UHGV virus genome: UHGV-0876955
Direction: 5' to 3' (one strand)
Length of the DNA: 20,233 bases
Origin: a virus
This document shows, piece after piece, positions 1 through 19,929 of the stretch. The position numbers and the translations under genes were made by a program. Position 1 is the stretch's first letter, and each line of letters opens with the position of its first letter. The notes beneath the pieces are model-generated. The model worked only from the letters and a program-made list of their open reading frames with translations, made no database searches and had not been told where the DNA came from.

Positions 1-72
1 CCTATCCCCTGTGTGCCTTGAGAGACGCCGACCACTCCGTCTCTAAATTCAGAAAGTAACTCATTGGATTGA

Positions 73-2322
73 TACAGGCTTTCCACCGTTAACAAAGCTA
101 TTTCTGGTCGTTACGATGGCGGCTTCCCATGTGGTCGTATCGTCGAAGTATTCGGTCCTCCAAGTGCAGGGAAATGTGTTACCGCAGACACCATGCTGCT
201 GACGGAGCGTGGAATGGTAACAGTGAAAGAGTTGTTTGAGATTGAAGGGTACAAAGCGACATGCACTACTCGCGATGTAGAGCATAACGTTGGACTCATC
301 AATGAAAATGGCGTGATAGAGAAGACCTCACACCTGACATGGAACAACCGTCGCAAATTCAAGCGTATTAAGCTGGCATCAGGCGGTTATATCGAGGCTA
401 CGTTCCGTCACCCAATCCGTGTGGTTGACGACTTAGGTAATGTCGTCTGGCGACATGCTGAAAAAATCAGTGTAGGCGACACGATTCCTTCAATGGTTGG
501 CACACATCAATTCGGCGATCAGCACCTGGATGCCAATATCGCAAAACTGATGGGCTATTTAATTGCTGACGGATACGTCGCCTCTGAAAATTCAGTGAAT
601 TTTTCTAACACAGATCCTTTCATCAAGGATGAGTACTACCGCCTCATTTCGCTGGTATCAGACAAGATGCCAGTTACGAGAAAACATAACGGCTCGGAAG
701 ACCATGTGCTGTTTAGCAAAGAGGTGCGTTCGCTGCTTTTTAAAGAATATGGTCTGGAGTATGAGAAAGCTGCTGGCAAGCAGGTTCCGTTGAGTGTGCG
801 TCGCGCCAATAGCGAGGCTCAAATTGCATTCCTTCGCGGCTACTTTGAGCTGGAATGCCACGTCAATGATGGTCGCTGCATTGAGGTTGTGAGCGCGAGT
901 GGGCTGCTGCTACAGCAAATTCGCCTCATGCTCCTGAATCTGGGGATTACGTCAACTATCTCTGAAAAACACGTCGCGGGTTATGAAAATACATATTACC
1001 GGCTGTCATTCAGTGGCTCTAATTACGACCTTTTTCTGTCAACGATTGGTTTCGAATCTCCGGCACGTTTATCAGTGGCAACCAAACGGGACATTGGTTT
1101 TGACCGCACTTACTCAGGCTATGTTCCGCACATCAGCGGCTTAGTGAAATCACTCTACGAGTCGCTCACCAAGACCACCCGTGAAGACTACGCTCTGGTA
1201 GACCACGTTATTGGCCGCGGCGATCGTGTCGGAATAGACAAACTGCGAGAAATCTATGTCTCCTTCATTGGCAGAAAGAATCGTTTTAACGAGCATCTGT
1301 TTGCACAACTGGCAGCGGTAATTGGCTCTAACTTGTTCTACGACGAAGTCGTGGCTATTGAGGAAGGTGAAGCACCAACGTTCGACGTAGCGATGCCGGA
1401 AACACACTCTTTCTGGTCTAACGGGATTATCAGCCACAACACATTCCTTGCAACAGCAGCGATGATCTCCGCTCAAAAACAAGATGGTCTGGCGGTATTC
1501 CTCGATCATGAAAACAGTTTTGACGTTGGCCTGGCTGTAGCCAATGGCCTGAACGCAGATGAGGATGACGGTCAGTGGGTCTACAAACAGCCGGATACCT
1601 TCGAAGACTCCGTAGAGCTGATCGGCACAATCCTCAAGCTGGTGCGCGACGAAGAGCTTATTCCGGAAACAGCCCCTATCTGCATCGTAGCCGACTCTCT
1701 GGCGTCGATGGTTCCGAACTCGAAGGCTGAGAAGTTCGACAAGATGGCAGAAGGCACTGCGAAAGACAAAGATCAGCTGAACATGAACGACAACACGGCG
1801 CTGGCGCGCGCGACAAGTGCGAACTTCCCTACTCTGGCGCTTTGGGCGCGTAAGTACAACGCGTGCATCATCTTCTTGAACCAGGTGCGTACCAAAATTG
1901 GTGTGATGTTTGGCGATCCGACTACGTCTCCGGGTGGCGACTCTCCGAAGTTCTACGCGTCGGTGCGCATCCGTCTGGGTGCATCCGTCATGAAGGATGG
2001 CAAAGAGAAGATCGGCCAGGACGTAGGCGCAGAATGCATCAAAAACAAAGTTGCACCACCGTATGGCAAATGCACCTGGAAATTCTACTTCGATCCTACT
2101 CGTGGCCTCGACGTTATCGAATCGCTCGTCGAGTACATGCTGGAAGAAGGATACCTGCCAAAGAACGCCAGCGGGCGAGTTGAAATTGGTGACAAGAAAT
2201 ACACCAAATCGCAGATCGTCGAGATGTATCGGGAGAAGCCACTGGCTGAAATCATTGCGGCTTTGCAGGCAATCGACGACCGAAGAGCAAAAGACAACCC
2301 CACCGAGTCAGTAGAAGAGTAA
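73..2322 (+). CDS. recA: RecA-family recombinase precursor containing an intein; 5' end unresolved (frame opens at 73 after an in-frame TGA at 70-72, no start codon before the conserved core)
   Basis: Extein reads ...GGFPCGRIVEVFGPPSAGK | TFLATAAMISAQ...ICIVADSLASM...FLNQVRTKIGVMFGDPTTSPGGDSPKFYASVRIRLG..., matching RecA Walker A and the [25 protein letters not shown] core as I recall it from E. coli RecA. Stop TAA at 2320-2322. Confidence 0.8.
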   Translation, partial: YRLSTVNKAISGRYDGGFPCGRIVEVFGPPSAGKCVTADTMLLTERGMVTVKELFEIEGYKATCTTRDVEHNVGLINENGVIEKTSHLTWNNRRKFKRIKLASGGYIEATFRHPIRVVDDLGNVVWRHAEKISVGDTIPSMVGTHQFGDQHLDANIAKLMGYLIADGYVASENSVNFSNTDPFIKDEYYRLISLVSDKMPVTRKHNGSEDHVLFSKEVRSLLFKEYGLEYEKAAGKQVPLSVRRANSEAQIAFLRGYFELECHVNDGRCIEVVSASGLLLQQIRLMLLNLGITSTISEKHVAGYENTYYRLSFSGSNYDLFLSTIGFESPARLSVATKRDIGFDRTYSGYVPHISGLVKSLYESLTKTTREDYALVDHVIGRGDRVGIDKLREIYVSFIGRKNRFNEHLFAQLAAVIGSNLFYDEVVAIEEGEAPTFDVAMPETHSFWSNGIISHNTFLATAAMISAQKQDGLAVFLDHENSFDVGLAVANGLNADEDDGQWVYKQPDTFEDSVELIGTILKLVRDEELIPETAPICIVADSLASMVPNSKAEKFDKMAEGTAKDKDQLNMNDNTALARATSANFPTLALWARKYNACIIFLNQVRTKIGVMFGDPTTSPGGDSPKFYASVRIRLGASVMKDGKEKIGQDVGAECIKNKVAPPYGKCTWKFYFDPTRGLDVIESLVEYMLEEGYLPKNASGRVEIGDKKYTKSQIVEMYREKPLAEIIAALQAIDDRRAKDNPTESVEE
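175..1440 (+). mobile_element. Intein (422 codons) with LAGLIDADG homing-endonuclease domain, inserted between Lys and Thr of the RecA P-loop
   Basis: Begins with Cys (TGT 175-177) in CVTADTMLL (intein block A-like); two LAGLIDADG-type motifs LMGYLIADGY (547-576) and FLRGYFELECHVNDG (829-873); ends ...GIISHN (Asn AAC 1438-1440) followed by Thr +1, after which RecA sequence resumes in frame. Confidence 0.8.
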
Positions 2323-4515: not shown

Positions 4516-4847
4516 AGGCCATCCCATTCGCGCTGTTGTTCCTTTCTTCGATCGTTGTGGCCGACACCACTGTTTATCAGTGTGAAATGTCTGTAGCCGA
4601 CGTTAAGAATGGCGCTCTTACCGACGTCATAAAAGCACCATATGGCGCGATGGTCGTAGACAGCGGCGACCAGTTCTATGTTGTGCGAGACGATCGAGTA
4701 TTGTCATCCCCATATCTCACAAACCGTAATGGCAAATTAACCGGCGTCGGAGAAGACCACTTCGTATACAACAAATACAAGGGCTTCTATGGCGTTCACG
4801 CTTCTCAGCAAAGCTACCTTTTCGATGACTGCAAGGAGGTTGGATAA
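4512..4847 (+). CDS. Secreted/periplasmic hypothetical protein (111 aa) with N-terminal signal peptide
   Basis: MKAIPFALLFLSSIVVA signal-like N-terminus; SD gaggtgg upstream. Confidence 0.5.
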   Translation: MKAIPFALLFLSSIVVADTTVYQCEMSVADVKNGALTDVIKAPYGAMVVDSGDQFYVVRDDRVLSSPYLTNRNGKLTGVGEDHFVYNKYKGFYGVHASQQSYLFDDCKEVG

Positions 4848-5059
4848 TGGCATTAACACTGGCAGGTCTGGAAATCGAGAAAACAAGCGGATACTGGCGT
4901 GCTAAGGGTTTCAAGCAGCCTGGCATTCTTGAGCGTCTGGAACGTGAAGATGGGTATATCGTCCACCAGCGGCGTGAATGGCGTATGTACGATCCAGAAA
5001 CAGGAAAACTGACTACAAAAGCCGGAACACTTTGGGGTCTGTTGAAGAAAATACACTAA
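4847..5059 (+). CDS. Hypothetical protein (70 aa)
   Basis: SD aaggagg upstream; start overlaps upstream stop (TAATG). Confidence 0.45.
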   Translation: MALTLAGLEIEKTSGYWRAKGFKQPGILERLEREDGYIVHQRREWRMYDPETGKLTTKAGTLWGLLKKIH

Positions 5060-5067
5060 ATGCAAAC

Positions 5068-5091
5068 TGACTGCGGCACGTGCCGCAGTCA
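5068..5091. repeat. 24-bp perfect palindrome centred on CACGTG
   Basis: tgactgcggcacgtgccgcagtca, followed by T-rich tatttcat; terminator or protein-binding site at the edge of the iteron array. Confidence 0.5.
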
Positions 5092-5106
5092 TATTTCATA
5101 GTCGTC

Positions 5107-5640
5107 ACCGCTGACAGCATACACAATCAACTGCCGCTGATAGCATATCGAGAGTCTATCTCACCGCTCACAGCATACTTTACTCGATTTTTTACCGCTG
5201 ACAGCATACTTAAGACATTGCATGAATAATATGTCCCGGTATGGGTATAACCAGAACAAAATTACCGCTGGCAGCATACGAAGGTCTGACATATACCATT
5301 AATTACCGCTGATAGCATATCCAAACAAAAATTCCTCAATAAAACACCGCTGACAGCATACGTTCTATCAGAGAGCAGCAGGCAATAAATGCCTTTCACT
5401 ACAAGCAATCAGCGCAATGGCAATAGAATGTTAGTGAGCGCAAACCTTTATGGAATGCACTCTTCGAGGTTAGTAACCACTGGGGAGGTATGACAGAGCA
5501 TTGAGTGGTGATAGATGATTAACCGCTCACAGCATACGTTTATCTCACTATACCGCTGGTAGCATATCTTTTAACCGTTCACAGCATACTTTTCAGGAAA
5601 ATAGCCGCTGATAGCATACATTTCACCGCTGACAGCATAT
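5107..5640 (+). repeat. Iteron array downstream of repA (incA-like): 12 direct copies of ~16-bp ACCGCTGRYAGCATAY
   Basis: Copies start at 5107, 5133, 5163, 5194, 5264, 5305, 5346, 5522, 5552, 5574, 5604, 5625; the last overlaps the repA stop. Confidence 0.85.
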
Positions 5641-6734
5641 CAAAGCAGTTTGAGACTATTGGAAAGGATCTCAATCATCTTGATATTTTCAGGCGTCAAA
5701 TTCTGCGAAAGTTCAGTTATCTTGTTGATAATGTTCTGTTTAGCATCAATTTCCCCGGCTTTCTCATCTGGTTTTTTGGGTTCGATGTCTTCAGGTTTTG
5801 GCGGTGCGACTTTGAGTTTTGGATTGCGGCTGTGAATCTGGATATAGATCGACCGCCCCCGCTTAATCTCGCTATATTCGAGATAGCCCAAATCTTGGAG
5901 AGCTTTTAAGCCGTTACGTATAGTCTGATTCTGCGAGCTGACATTCCTGCTACTCAAATTGAGTCGCGCACGCAATCGAGCAAGCGATACCGGCGCAGGC
6001 TTGGTTGGAAGACTTTCGATGAAGGTGTACAGAGCCTGTGCTGTTTCTTTGCGTGGTAGCTTATTGATAACCTTTAACTGCAAAAGAACCTTATGGTCAA
6101 AGCGATATAGTTCGGCCAGCTTCGGTTCTGCATAGAACACCACCGTATCTTTCTGCTCGTTGTAGTCCACGCTATTGATGAGGTGCACCATCAGAAGCGA
6201 GATCTTGTTAGAGCCGTCGACGTTCTTTTCTTCATACGTTCTCTGGAAAGACAGAGTTGTACGCATGATCTTCAAAAGACTGTTTGTAAGCCGGTCGCGG
6301 AGTGTTTTGCGGATCTGTGACGATGGATAGCCACAAAACTTCGCAAATTTCGTGATGCTTAACTCGACACGACCGTTAGGTTCGCCGTATTCTGCCAGCG
6401 AACGCACAACGCCCACCCACGTTTTGAAATCATGATCCATGTCGAGACGAGGACCGGTTATCTTGATATCGGAATAGCCTTCAGAACGGGCTACTTCGAG
6501 CTGAACAAGCTCCTTTGAAGCATCGATCTCATTTGGCTTGTTACGCTTGCTGTATTTTGTCCCCTTGAGCGTGGGCACGAACAACCCCAGCCGCATCAAC
6601 GCAATTGGTTGGACTGTATTGTTGCTATTAGGGACAAGTTCCCCTGTGTACAATTCAAGGGAACCTTCTTCAAAGTTGTCGAGATTATCTTCTACTTCTT
6701 TGTTATTTTTACCTTTTTTATTTTTTGTGGACAT
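5640..6734 (-). CDS. repA: Replication initiator RepA (RepFIB / P1 RepA family), 364 aa
   Basis: Motifs NSNNTVQPIALMRLGLFVP, KITGPRLDMDHDFKTWVG, LYTFIESLPTKPAPVSLARLRARLNL, HSRNPKLK match my recollection of RepFIB/P1 RepA. Start taken at ATG 6734-6732 (MSTKNKKGK); the track's longer N-terminus (to 6854) is just translated iterons. Confidence 0.85.
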   Translation of the reverse strand: MSTKNKKGKNNKEVEDNLDNFEEGSLELYTGELVPNSNNTVQPIALMRLGLFVPTLKGTKYSKRNKPNEIDASKELVQLEVARSEGYSDIKITGPRLDMDHDFKTWVGVVRSLAEYGEPNGRVELSITKFAKFCGYPSSQIRKTLRDRLTNSLLKIMRTTLSFQRTYEEKNVDGSNKISLLMVHLINSVDYNEQKDTVVFYAEPKLAELYRFDHKVLLQLKVINKLPRKETAQALYTFIESLPTKPAPVSLARLRARLNLSSRNVSSQNQTIRNGLKALQDLGYLEYSEIKRGRSIYIQIHSRNPKLKVAPPKPEDIEPKKPDEKAGEIDAKQNIINKITELSQNLTPENIKMIEILSNSLKLL

Positions 6735-6754
6735 GTGGACACCTTTGTCATTCA

Positions 6755-6856
6755 ACCGCTGACAGCATACTTGATTTGCCGCTGGCAGCATACCAAAAAC
6801 AGTTGGCAGCATACGGCGAACCGTTGACAGACTATCAATTACCGCTGGCAGCATAC
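6755..6856 (+). repeat. Origin iterons upstream of repA (incC-like): 5 copies at ~21-bp spacing, two degenerate
   Basis: Same consensus as the downstream array; copies at 6755, 6778, 6801 (partial), 6820 (degenerate), 6841. Confidence 0.8.
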
Positions 6857-6903
6857 ATGAACATGGCTTCAGACCAGTCGTGGCGCGGCTTACAGCGATC
6901 GGG

Positions 6904-6969
6904 GATCTTATTTGATCTATACAAGGATCTATCTATGGATCTCTTTATTAGGATCTATCCTGTGGATAT
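6904..6969. promoter_or_regulatory. Origin-associated GATC cluster (5 sites in ~52 bp) plus DnaA-box-like TGTGGATAT
   Basis: GATC at 6904, 6914, 6926, 6938, 6952 within repeated gGATCTat units; tgtggatat at 6961-6969 matches the DnaA box complement TGTGGATAA at 8 of 9. Confidence 0.55.
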
Positions 6970-7055
6970 GTGAATAATTAAAACAGGCATTTACTACCTT
7001 CGGCGCACCTGGTGAGTTATCGTTGCCTCGGCTAACAATCACAGAAAAATGACAT

Positions 7056-7700
7056 ATGGATCTAAAACGCACGCGCTGGGTTCGTCGTCTTGAAAACGGC
7101 TCCTACACTATCGAATCAAATTCCAACCTGAATAAGCAGAAGTTGCTTTGTGACATCTGCGGTATAGCGGCGAAGTGCCCGATCTACGAAACCAGAATTA
7201 AACTTGATAAGGCTGGTGTGAACTTTCATTTAAACAGTTGCATCAGGTACGTTCCATTGCTCGCATTTCGTAAACCGATCATCGGATTGGATGCACCCTA
7301 CTTCAACACACTCCGTTCAGGTGTGACGTGGCGAGATCGTTTATCACCAGACAAGCTGATTTGCCTTGTATCCGCAGACACAGGGAAAATCATCCGTTTT
7401 GGGAAAGTAGACAAGGTTTACTCAGGCCCAGTAGACGAAATGTTGCGGAAACACAGCCGGTTTAATCATCTCTGTATGGGTGGTGAGAAAATCGAGAAGG
7501 TAGAAGAAGTGATCCGCAAATCCTACGGACACTTTCTGACCAAAGATAGCCTGCTCACCGCAATCTACATCAGACATGTAAAACGTGAGTTCGACCTCGA
7601 ATACCACAGCGAAGAAGAGCTTAACCTTGTTGACCCACGTCCAAAAGCTGGCGTCATAAGCATAAACGCAGCGCGTAAAAAGCCCACTGACGCGCTGTAA
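7056..7700 (+). CDS. Hypothetical protein (214 aa) with Cys pair CDICG...C
   Basis: Long ORF with protein-like composition; no recognisable family; no clear SD. Confidence 0.45.
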   Translation: MDLKRTRWVRRLENGSYTIESNSNLNKQKLLCDICGIAAKCPIYETRIKLDKAGVNFHLNSCIRYVPLLAFRKPIIGLDAPYFNTLRSGVTWRDRLSPDKLICLVSADTGKIIRFGKVDKVYSGPVDEMLRKHSRFNHLCMGGEKIEKVEEVIRKSYGHFLTKDSLLTAIYIRHVKREFDLEYHSEEELNLVDPRPKAGVISINAARKKPTDAL

Positions 7701-19335: not shown

Positions 19336-19929
19336 ATGATTGCAGCCGAAAAAATCAAACAGCGAAAGCGCGACAACTCTCTTCGTGACCTCTGGAGAAC
19401 ACCTGACTGGCTGTTTTCTGCCATTCAACGTTATCTTGGAGTGACATTTGATGTTGACGTTGCCTGCAACAAGGACAATGCAAAGCTGCCTAATTTCATA
19501 GGCGTTGAGCGTGATGCTTTGAAATCTGAATGGGGACAGCCAGGTACAATTGCCTTCCTCAATCCACCCTACTCCAAAATCTACCCCTGGATTGATGCGG
19601 CTATACGTGAGCAGGCTCGCGGAGTTACAACAGTGATGCTAATTCCTCAATCCCTAGATACAAAGTGGTATGAGCGTGCAACAGAGTGTGCGAATGAGAC
19701 GATTATTCTGTCTGGTGGCCGCGTAGCGTTTGTCGAGCCTGACGTAAATCTGGGTCAGGTAGAAGTAAACATCAACCCAGGTGGCAGTATGCTCGTTGTT
19801 TTTCGAGGATTCTGTCAGGACGCTGGGCACTCTATAAGCAAGATCCCTTTGGACGTCATGAAAAGTCTGGGAGGGTATGATCCTGCGAATGTGATCAGGA
19901 AAAAAAGACCATCAAAGAAGGCTGCTTAG
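19336..19929 (+). CDS. Phage-type DNA N6-adenine methyltransferase
   Basis: WRTPDWLF, FDVDVAC and the catalytic-type FLNPPYS motif are typical of the small phage Dam-like methyltransferase family. Confidence 0.75.
   Translation: MIAAEKIKQRKRDNSLRDLWRTPDWLFSAIQRYLGVTFDVDVACNKDNAKLPNFIGVERDALKSEWGQPGTIAFLNPPYSKIYPWIDAAIREQARGVTTVMLIPQSLDTKWYERATECANETIILSGGRVAFVEPDVNLGQVEVNINPGGSMLVVFRGFCQDAGHSISKIPLDVMKSLGGYDPANVIRKKRPSKKAA

What the first reader, a model, noticed from the sequence alone, without database searches (positions are those of the whole stretch)
5068..6969. RepFIB/P1-type iteron replicon embedded among phage-type nucleotide-metabolism genes
A minus-strand repA is flanked by 12 downstream and 5 upstream direct copies of ACCGCTGRYAGCATAY. 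Upstream of the 5-iteron set are a GC-rich spacer, five GATC sites in about 52 bp, and a DnaA-box-like TGTGGATAT. That is the P1 oriR / RepFIB layout (DnaA boxes, Dam-methylatable GATC repeats, incC iterons, repA, incA iterons). Next to recA, nrdAB, thyA, folA, an exonuclease and a phage-type methyltransferase, it points to a phage-plasmid that is maintained as a low-copy plasmid. My recollection is that SSU5/pHCM2-like elements have this combination, but I cannot verify it here.
Basis: partly seen in the sequence, partly recalled or inferred. Interest (0 to 1): 0.5.

Follow-up and report, generated by a model that had tools for sequence, protein, structure and literature searches.

The report
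P1/RepFIB-type replicon of a phage-plasmid

Summary
A minus-strand repA (5640-6734, 364 aa, Rep_3 family) is 43.5% identical to P1 RepA and about 50% identical to IncFIB RepA.

Five direct iterons lie upstream of repA and twelve lie downstream. Beyond the upstream set come a GC-rich spacer, six GATC sites in an AT-rich stretch, and two tandem DnaA boxes (6961-6977). This layout is collinear with the annotated P1 oriR/incC-repA-incA, and the DnaA/GATC/spacer part is 69% identical to P1 at the nucleotide level.

The window belongs to an SSU5-supergroup phage-plasmid: phage Cyrano matches at 97.5% over 87% of it, and SSU5 at 77% over 65%.

- The whole replicon (5060-7055) is an exchangeable cassette. 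Cyrano is 97-98% identical in the flanks but carries the SSU5-type RepA (48% identity) with unrelated iterons.
- All the control iterons here are direct. P1, SSU5 and RepFIB each have some inverted copies.
- The element encodes its own Dam-type methyltransferase.

The same replicon occurs in 120 of 5426 complete E. coli genomes, always on plasmids, so it is already known. The mechanism is inferred by homology with P1, not tested.

The parts
5060..7055 (-). Whole replicon cassette, from the stop of the 70-aa ORF (4847-5059) to the ATG of ORF 7056-7700.
   Evidence: Identity to phage Cyrano is 97-98% up to 5059 and again from 7056. It is about 70% across 6868-7055, and no DNA similarity is detectable across 5060-6867.
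5068..5091 (.). Perfect 10-bp GC-rich hairpin with T-rich tails on both strands. Probably a bidirectional terminator that insulates the replicon from the upstream + strand operon.
   Evidence: The terminator scan finds it on both strands. Folding gives -20.1 kcal/mol, z = -4.2.
5107..5361 (+). Distal block of the control (incA-like) array: 7 direct iterons at 5107, 5133, 5163, 5194, 5264, 5305 and 5346.
   Evidence: Three of these are deleted in phage PhiR41_1.
5362..5521 (.). 160-bp non-repeat spacer that splits the control array. Function unknown.
   Evidence: No iteron, no Rfam hit, weak fold signal. Not aligned with Klebsiella pJN2-26.
5522..5640 (+). Proximal block of the control array: 5 direct iterons at 5522, 5552, 5574, 5604 and 5625. 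The last one overlaps the repA stop codon by 1 nt, exactly as P1 incA copy 9 does.
5640..6734 (-). repA, 364 aa, a Rep_3-family iteron-binding initiator. The P1-homologous core is aa 32-309. The C-terminal tail of about 55 aa is shared with RepFIB and SSU5 RepA but is absent from P1 RepA.
6755..6856 (+). Five origin (incC-like) iterons at 6755, 6778, 6799, 6820 and 6841, spaced 23/21/21/21 bp. On the repA strand they read RTATGCTRYCAGCGGT.
   Evidence: The same number and spacing occur in four relatives. P1 has five with 21-22 bp spacing.
6857..6900 (.). GC-rich spacer (57% GC) with the motif GATCG..GCCGCGCCACG.CTGG shared with P1 oriR.
6897..6955 (.). Six GATC (Dam) sites, five of them in heptamer-like WAGATCC repeats within an AT-rich (35% GC) stretch. 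By homology with P1 this is the presumed methylation-dependent unwinding region.
6961..6977 (-). Two tandem DnaA boxes that overlap by one base: ATATCCACA (1 mismatch) and TTATTCACA (perfect).
   Evidence: They align with the annotated P1 DnaA site.
19336..19929 (+). Element-encoded phage-type N6-adenine (Dam-family) methyltransferase. It may methylate the origin GATC sites; this is an inference.
   Evidence: Pfam PF05869, E 2.9e-38. TIGR01712 equivalog, 113 bits against a cut-off of 97.

Best explanation
Region 5060-7055 is the plasmid-prophage maintenance replicon of an SSU5-supergroup (E. coli pSLy3-like) phage-plasmid. It is a theta-type, iteron-controlled replicon of the P1 oriR / RepFIB family.

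By homology with P1, the likely mechanism is as follows:
- RepA monomers bind the five phased iterons at 6755-6856.
- Host DnaA binds the tandem boxes at 6961-6977.
- The AT-rich GATC heptamer stretch (6897-6955) must be Dam-methylated to open. After firing it is hemimethylated and sequestered.
- The repA promoter lies in or next to the origin iterons, so RepA represses its own synthesis.
- The twelve downstream iterons (5107-5640) act as the copy-number control locus. They titrate RepA and pair with origin iterons ('handcuffing'), holding the element at about one copy per chromosome.

RepA together with both iteron sets sets the replicon's specificity, and hence its incompatibility. This module has been exchanged as a cassette between otherwise near-identical phage-plasmids.

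Shown here: the parts, their order, their homology and their distribution. Inferred: every functional step.
For: - Iterons: 16 hits against 0.08 expected, all within 5107-6856; the fifth upstream copy is in register.
- RepA: Pfam Rep3_N. 43.5% identity to P1/P7 RepA, E 2e-64, and 47.9% to SSU5 RepA. About 50% to RepA of IncFIB-typed plasmids. PHROG 775, E 4.6e-133.
- Layout matches annotated P1 part for part: five origin iterons at about 21-bp spacing, a roughly 40-bp spacer, a GATC cluster, tandem DnaA boxes, and a control array whose last iteron touches the repA stop.
- The host-factor part aligns with P1 (69%), pJN2-26 (77%), SSU5 and Cyrano. RepFIB shows the same DnaA-box/GATC/spacer/iteron order.
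- Evidence that it works as a replicon: about 100-114 kb circular, non-mobilizable plasmids have this as their only typed replicon, rep_cluster_488. It is in 204 PLSDB records and in 120 of 5426 complete E. coli genomes, with 0 chromosomal places.
- The origin iteron set is invariant at five, while the control array varies (12, 9, 8), as expected for a dispensable regulator.
- Cassette exchange.
- The element carries its own Dam-type methyltransferase.
- Literature: SSU5-supergroup phage-plasmids are typed IncFIB (PMC7969092; PMC11652158).
Against: - Nothing here tests function.
- No sigma-70 consensus promoter for repA was found in the iterons. The best candidate by eye is TTGATA-19 nt-TATGCT, so autoregulation is only assumed.
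- There are no DnaA boxes on the repA-proximal side, unlike P1, and the leader is only 20 bp.
- No par genes adjoin the control array, whereas P1 has parAB there.
- All control iterons are direct, whereas six of the nine in P1 are inverted, so the pairing geometry may differ.
- A 160-bp spacer of unknown role interrupts the array.
- RepA gave no match to solved structures by sequence, and the single-sequence model was unusable (pLDDT 39). The two-winged-helix fold therefore rests on Pfam and on homology to P1 RepA.
Confidence: 0.9

Rival explanations
1. The region is (also) the lytic-cycle origin of the phage, firing repeatedly after induction, and is not solely a low-copy maintenance origin.
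For: It sits inside a block of phage DNA-metabolism genes: RecA, NrdAB, ThyA, DHFR, a proofreading-type exonuclease and a resolvase. No second origin was looked for outside the window.
Against: The architecture is that of copy-limited iteron replicons. A large control array with the same repeats as the origin is a negative regulator in P1. P1 uses a separate lytic replicon (established knowledge; the screening genes repL and repA are listed separately for P1 in the 2025 preprint). The same replicon type drives ordinary IncFIB plasmids with no phage genes.
Confidence: 0.1
2. The flanking repeats are recombination (att) or partition (centromere) sites, not initiator-binding iterons.
For: The GenBank record of Klebsiella phage pJN2-26 labels two of the homologous repeats attL and attR. 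Arrays of direct repeats can serve as centromeres.
Against: The repeats occur 17 times. They flank a Rep_3 initiator in the exact P1 incC/incA pattern, with five in 21-bp phase next to GATC and DnaA boxes. No integrase or ParAB gene is adjacent. All 185 places in complete E. coli genomes are on plasmids and none is integrated.
Confidence: 0.02
3. The replicon is a decayed relic and the element is maintained by another replicon elsewhere on it.
For: Only 20 kb of an element of roughly 110 kb is visible. The window shows other signs of damage or assembly error: a split thyA and a rearranged sbcCD.
Against: repA is intact and 100% identical to that of E. coli D4 plasmid A. The cassette is 98-100% conserved across more than 100 circular plasmids for which MOB-suite reports no other replicon.
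Confidence: 0.03

Closest known systems
Bacteriophage P1 plasmid replicon (oriR/incC - repA - incA)
   Same: - RepA is homologous: 43.5% identity, E 2e-64.
- Five origin iterons at about 21-bp spacing.
- GC-rich spacer, a cluster of GATC heptamers and tandem DnaA boxes at the outer end, in the same order and 69% identical at the nucleotide level.
- The control array starts at the repA stop codon.
- The host element is a phage-plasmid that also encodes its own Dam.
   Different: - The iteron sequence differs: RTATGCTRYCAGCGGT against ATGTGTGCTGGAGGG, and no P1-type iteron is present in the window.
- There are 12 control iterons, all direct and split 5 + 7 by a 160-bp spacer. P1 has 9, six of them inverted.
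- No repA-proximal DnaA box.
- No adjacent parAB-parS.
- RepA has extra N-terminal (about 30 aa) and C-terminal (about 55 aa) extensions.
- The phage backbone is SSU5-like (described as a siphophage in PMC11652158), not P1-like.
RepFIB replicon of IncF plasmids (here represented by IncFIB-typed pRM10425-C1 and pKKo003_2)
   Same: - This is the closest of the classical plasmid RepA proteins, at about 50% identity.
- RepA shares the C-terminal tail motif.
- The order DnaA box, GATC repeats, spacer, iterons, repA, iterons is the same.
   Different: - The iteron core is different: ATAARCTGTAG.
- RepFIB has inverted iterons downstream.
- MOB-suite places this replicon in rep_cluster_488 and not in IncFIB.
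- The carriers are non-mobilizable phage-plasmids, not conjugative F-type plasmids.
Replicon of Salmonella phage SSU5 / Escherichia phage Cyrano
   Same: - Same genomic slot, between the Cra-like 70-aa ORF and the 214-aa ORF.
- Same family of RepA (47.9% identity).
- Homologous DnaA/GATC/spacer part (about 70% identity).
- Same phage backbone.
   Different: - Unrelated iterons, WWCCACTRTRGNGAG.
- SSU5 and Cyrano have a tandemly duplicated origin upstream of repA (two sets of 5-6 iterons, with the proximal GATC sites mutated) and a control array with both orientations.
- No DNA similarity across repA and the iterons.
Replicon of Klebsiella SSU5-like phage-plasmids (pJN2-26, ST13-OXA48phi12.3; pKpn group)
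   Same: - Same replicon subtype: RepA is 85-87% identical.
- Same iteron consensus, five origin iterons with identical spacing, and an all-direct control array.
   Different: - 8 control iterons (4 + 4), not 12.
- A different, shorter inter-block spacer.
- About 75% DNA identity.

Membership tests
Rep_3 (PF01051) iteron-binding initiators | N-terminal winged-helix domain (WH1) recognised by the family profile | tested here: met
   Rep3_N, E 3.9e-9, 37.5 bits against a cut-off of 22.4, residues 118-239. P1, RepFIB and SSU5 RepA hit the same model.
Rep_3 (PF01051) iteron-binding initiators | Second winged-helix domain (WH2) and the overall two-WH fold | tested here: inconclusive
   Rep3_C was not reported at E <= 0.01 for this protein. 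It was weak and near the cut-off for P1, RepFIB and SSU5 RepA. The region is well conserved in the alignment. PDB sequence searches found nothing. The single-sequence AlphaFold model had pLDDT 39 and could not be used.
Rep_3 (PF01051) iteron-binding initiators | Directly repeated binding sites (iterons) next to the rep gene | tested here: met
   17 copies flank repA; 16 at <= 2 mismatches against 0.08 expected. Binding itself was not tested.
P1 oriR / RepFIB-type replicon | RepA homologous to P1 RepA | tested here: met
   43.5% identity over 76% of the protein, E 2e-64; alignment.
P1 oriR / RepFIB-type replicon | Origin order: tandem DnaA boxes, GATC heptamer cluster, GC-rich spacer, five phased iterons, repA | tested here: met
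   Coordinates against the P1 annotation. The nucleotide alignment is 69% identical to P1. RepFIB shows the same order.
P1 oriR / RepFIB-type replicon | Second iteron array directly downstream of repA (incA-type control locus) | tested here: met
   12 iterons at 5107-5640. The last overlaps the repA stop by 1 nt, as in P1.
P1 oriR / RepFIB-type replicon | Part of the control array in inverted orientation | tested here: not met
   All 12 are direct, and so are all 8 in pJN2-26. P1 has 6 of 9 inverted, and SSU5, Cyrano and RepFIB also have inverted copies. This is a variable trait of the family, not a strict criterion.
P1 oriR / RepFIB-type replicon | repA promoter embedded in the origin iterons (autoregulation) | tested here: inconclusive
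   The consensus scan found no minus-strand promoter at 6735-6860. Only a weak TTGATA-19-TATGCT candidate was seen by eye.
P1 oriR / RepFIB-type replicon | Dependence on Dam methylation and DnaA | not testable with these tools
   The sites are present and a Dam-type gene is on the element. Dependence needs dam and dnaA host tests.
P1 oriR / RepFIB-type replicon | parAB-parS partition operon adjoining incA (P1 arrangement) | tested here: not met
   The neighbours are small + strand ORFs of unknown function and a terminator. No ParA or ParB was found in the window. Partition genes presumably lie elsewhere on the element.
IncFIB incompatibility group (strict sense) | Typed IncFIB by replicon-typing schemes | tested here: not met
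   For two plasmids that carry this replicon (RepA 100% identical in one, cassette DNA 98.9% identical in the other), MOB-suite gives rep_cluster_488. Plasmids with about 50%-identical RepA are typed IncFIB. Papers say PlasmidFinder types SSU5-supergroup elements as IncFIB, and a type named IncFIB(H89-PhagePlasmid) exists. I could not run PlasmidFinder on this sequence.
IncFIB incompatibility group (strict sense) | Actual incompatibility with RepFIB plasmids | not testable with these tools
   The different iteron sequence predicts compatibility. This needs a co-residence experiment.
SSU5-supergroup phage-plasmid (E. coli pSLy3-like) | Gene content and synteny shared with SSU5 and relatives | tested here: met
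   Cyrano 97.5% over 87% of the window; SSU5 77% over 65%. Same gene order around the replicon.
SSU5-supergroup phage-plasmid (E. coli pSLy3-like) | Extrachromosomal maintenance | tested here: met
   This applies to relatives only: 185 places in 120 complete genomes, all on plasmids. The window itself is a contig fragment.
SSU5-supergroup phage-plasmid (E. coli pSLy3-like) | Virion and lysis genes; inducibility | not testable with these tools
   None lie in this 20-kb window. Near-identical records are deposited as phages (Cyrano, PhiR41_1, CMS-2020a).

The most novel reading that the evidence does not exclude
The replicon is a self-contained, exchangeable 'incompatibility cassette'. Its ends fall exactly at the neighbouring genes' stop and start codons.

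Near-identical E. coli phage-plasmids (97-98% in the flanks) carry either this RepA/iteron set or the SSU5-type set. The host-factor part of the origin (DnaA boxes, GATC heptamers, spacer) stays homologous in both.

If the two types are compatible, swapping the cassette would let sibling phage-plasmids share a cell and escape copy-control interference. The all-direct control array, whose length varies (8, 9 or 12 iterons), would be a quickly adjustable copy-number setting.
Probability: 0.5. Interest if true: 0.35.

Novelty: already known. Interest (0 to 1): 0.15.

Why it matters
The finding confirms that this contig comes from an SSU5-supergroup phage-plasmid and locates its maintenance replicon. 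That helps with annotation in three ways:
- The RefSeq-style RepB start codon lies inside the iterons.
- One GenBank record labels the homologous iterons as att sites.
- It helps with replicon typing of elements that sometimes carry ESBL genes.

The biology itself is textbook P1/RepFIB-type iteron control. The one modestly new angle is the clean cassette polymorphism of the replicon within one phage-plasmid lineage. This parallels the IncY/p0111 dimorphism already described for P1-like elements (PMC7969092).

Tried and rejected
- Sequence searches of RepA, and of a 7-sequence RepA profile, against PDB chains found nothing.
- Single-sequence AlphaFold2 gave pLDDT 39, so no fold search was run. 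I ran no further search on deepening the alignment, because homology to P1 RepA already settles the family.
- NCBIfam has no model that hits RepA, P1 RepA or RepFIB RepA.
- Rfam found no RNA family anywhere in the window.
- The promoter scan found no minus-strand sigma-70 site in the origin iterons.
- I looked for relic SSU5-type or P1-type iterons in the window that might mark the recombination history. There are none in the replicon.
- I first read the right-hand junction with Cyrano as 6868, inside the origin. The base-level alignment shows that 6868-7055 is only about 70% identical and that the high-identity flank begins at 7056. The whole origin therefore belongs to the cassette.
- Co-residence of the two replicon types in one strain: no strain name occurs in both 60-row lists. 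The lists cover only about half of the hits, so this says little.
- The 160-bp and 54-bp gaps in the control array have no convincing ORF or structure.
- Accession HG530657 (recalled from memory as the PlasmidFinder reference for IncFIB(H89-PhagePlasmid)) is not in the collections.
- A 2026 preprint on phage-plasmid-mediated heteroresistance that mentions pSLy3 could not be opened.
- The att-site and centromere readings of the repeats were rejected, as was the 'decayed relic' reading (see rival explanations).
Full report
**Observation**

The repeat ACCGCTGRYAGCATAY occurs 16 times with up to 2 mismatches. All copies are on the + strand and all lie between 5107 and 6856; shuffles give 0.08 expected. 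Twelve copies follow the 3' end of a minus-strand ORF (5107-5640). Four precede its 5' end. A fifth upstream copy at 6820 has three mismatches and sits in exact 21-bp register.

The ORF lister starts the gene at 6854 (404 aa). Its first 40 residues are simply translated iterons. The ATG at 6734 is preceded by AAGGTG and gives a 364-aa protein, whose homology to other RepA proteins begins near residue 30.

Upstream of the five iterons are:
- a 57% GC spacer (6857-6900);
- six GATC sites (6897-6955) in a 35% GC stretch, the densest GATC cluster in the window;
- two tandem DnaA boxes at 6961-6977, one with a single mismatch and one perfect.

Otherwise the description is accurate.

**What the protein is**

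RepA hits Pfam Rep3_N (WH1 of iteron initiators; E 3.9e-9) and PHROG 775 (E 4.6e-133). By tblastn its identities are:

| Compared with | Identity |
|---|---|
| P1 and P7 RepA (aa 32-309, E 2e-64) | 43.5% |
| SSU5 and Cyrano RepA | 47.9% |
| RepA of Klebsiella SSU5-like phage-plasmids | 85-87% |
| RepA of thousands of plasmids, including records typed IncFIB | about 50% |
| E. coli D4 plasmid A | 100% |

The alignment shows a conserved core. It also shows a C-terminal tail of about 55 aa that RepFIB and SSU5 RepA share and P1 RepA lacks.

No solved structure matches by sequence. A single-sequence structure model was unusable. The two-winged-helix fold is therefore inferred from family membership.

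**Anatomy against P1**

The annotated P1 record has, in the same orientation:
- nine incA iterons, the last abutting the repA stop;
- repA;
- five incC iterons at 21-22 bp spacing that contain PrepA;
- a spacer of about 40 bp;
- five Dam sites;
- a DnaA site of two tandem boxes.

The window matches this part for part. The resemblance is more than analogy. The DnaA-box/GATC/spacer segment aligns with P1 oriR at 69% identity, and also with pJN2-26, SSU5 and Cyrano. An IncFIB plasmid shows the same order.

Differences from P1:
- The iteron sequence differs.
- There are twelve control iterons, not nine. All are direct, and a 160-bp unique spacer splits them 5 + 7. Six of the nine P1 incA iterons are inverted, and SSU5, Cyrano and RepFIB also have inverted copies.
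- There is no repA-proximal DnaA box.
- There is no adjoining par operon.
- No consensus repA promoter was found in the iterons.

**Context**

The window is 97.5% identical to Escherichia phage Cyrano over 87% of its length. It is 98-99% identical to phages CMS-2020a and PhiR41_1 over about 60%, and 77% identical to Salmonella phage SSU5 over 65%.

Pfam confirms the following genes:
- RecA (interrupted by an intein);
- an SPFH protein;
- NrdA and NrdB;
- a MazG-like pyrophosphohydrolase;
- ThyA and DHFR;
- a kinase-like ATPase;
- a DnaQ-like exonuclease;
- a phage Dam-type methyltransferase.

Published surveys place such E. coli elements in the SSU5 supergroup (pSLy3 group). They report that plasmid typing tools call their replicons IncFIB (PMC7969092; PMC11652158; the 2025 bioRxiv survey). 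The phage-plasmid reading is therefore supported.

**Cassette exchange**

Against Cyrano, identity is 97-98% up to the stop codon of the 70-aa ORF (5059) and again from the ATG of ORF 7056. Between these points, 6868-7055 is only about 70% identical. From 5060 to 6867 there is no detectable DNA similarity.

In that slot Cyrano and SSU5 carry a different replicon of the same family:
- RepA is 48% identical.
- The iterons are WWCCACTRTRGNGAG.
- The origin is tandemly duplicated, and the proximal copy has lost its GATC sites.
- The control array has mixed orientation.

Both replicon types are common. The window type is in 204 PLSDB records and in 120 of 5426 complete E. coli genomes. The Cyrano type is in 339 records and 129 genomes. 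Both are always on plasmids.

The analogous IncY/p0111 replicase dimorphism at one position in P1-like elements has been described, and the authors suggested it allows co-residence (PMC7969092). I could not test co-residence here.

**Variation**

The origin set is always five iterons with 23/21/21/21 spacing. The control array has twelve copies in the window and in two E. coli plasmids. It has nine in phage PhiR41_1, through an 87-bp iteron-to-iteron deletion, and eight in Klebsiella pJN2-26.

**Mechanism**

Shown: the parts, their order, their homology to experimentally dissected replicons, and the fact that circular plasmids of about 100-114 kb carry this as their only typed replicon.

Inferred from P1:
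- RepA binds the origin iterons.
- DnaA binds the tandem boxes.
- The Dam-methylated GATC heptamers form the opening and sequestration region.
- RepA represses its own synthesis.
- The downstream array limits copy number by titration and handcuffing.

The element's own Dam-type enzyme could keep the origin methylated independently of the host. This is speculative.

**Verdict**

The finding is real and correctly interpreted. It is an already known, widespread replicon in a known family of phage-plasmids, so interest is low. The cassette polymorphism and the all-direct control array of variable length are minor variants worth a note.

Noticed in passing
window 1-44: The first 44 bases (CCTATCCCCTGTGTGCCTTGAGAGACGCCGACC...) do not match Cyrano, whose match starts at 45. 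They do match the first 44 bases of the unrelated phage HK140 record at 95.5%. From memory the start resembles a 454 sequencing adaptor, so this is probably adaptor left at a contig end.
   Followed up: partly
window 193-2322 (+): RecA is interrupted by an intein with a LAGLIDADG homing-endonuclease domain (Intein_splicing, LAGLIDADG_3 and RecA hits). The plasmid p503440_100 has an intein-less 357-aa RecA at the same place, while PhiR41_1 has a 779-aa version. The gene's 5' end runs off the contig.
   Followed up: partly
window 14502-15606 (+): Thymidylate synthase is split into two overlapping ORFs, 14502-15119 and 15106-15606, matching profile positions 2-152 and 159-266. This is either a frameshift or a sequencing error.
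   Followed up: no
window 7958-8647: Compared with Cyrano, sbcD and most of sbcC are missing. A 690-bp internal piece of sbcC is present in inverted orientation, with 8-nt and 6-nt overlaps at the junctions. This is either a real deletion-inversion or a mis-assembly.
   Followed up: partly
window 19336-19929 (+): The element encodes a phage-type N6-adenine methyltransferase (PF05869, E 2.9e-38; TIGR01712 above its cut-off), about 12 kb from a GATC-rich origin. Its target sequence is not known.
   Followed up: partly
window 5640-6854 (-); L001 8640-9854: RefSeq annotates the initiator as a 404-aa 'RepB family' protein that starts inside the origin iterons. The first 40 residues repeat MLP.., i.e. 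translated iterons. The start at 6734, with a Shine-Dalgarno sequence, gives 364 aa, as annotated in PhiR41_1.
   Followed up: yes
L006 2753-2772 and 4023-4042 (Klebsiella phage pJN2-26, MZ779062): The record labels two 20-bp repeats flanking repA as phage attachment sites attR and attL. They are iterons of the replicon.
   Followed up: yes
L004 2280-2900 and L005 2280-2900 (Cyrano, SSU5): The SSU5-type replicon has two tandem copies of the DnaA-box/GATC/spacer/iteron unit upstream of repA. In the repA-proximal copy the GATC sites are mutated (AGAACC, AGACCC). The downstream iterons occur in both orientations.
   Followed up: partly
window 5552-5574: The spacing between these two control iterons is 22 nt in the window and 21 nt in the three E. 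coli relatives checked. The window may have one extra base in the T run of 'cttttaacc', possibly a homopolymer sequencing error.
   Followed up: no
window 4847-5059 (+): The 70-aa ORF that ends at the left edge of the cassette is annotated 'P1 Cra protein' or 'Cre-associated protein' in Cyrano, SSU5 and pJN2-26. It belongs to PHROG 804, of unknown function. It is conserved next to both replicon types.
   Followed up: no
window 5362-5521: A 160-bp unique spacer lies inside the control iteron array. It is conserved in E. coli relatives but not aligned in the Klebsiella version. The minus-strand fold is modestly stable (z about -3 with simple shuffles) and there is no Rfam hit.
   Followed up: partly
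one search hits H12, H14-H18, H20 (Escherichia albertii plasmids of about 62 kb): The same replicon (98.8% identity) also sits on much smaller (about 62 kb) E. albertii plasmids, while other E. albertii plasmids of 107-126 kb carry the Cyrano-type replicon. The small ones may be deleted phage-plasmids or ordinary plasmids that use this cassette.
   Followed up: no
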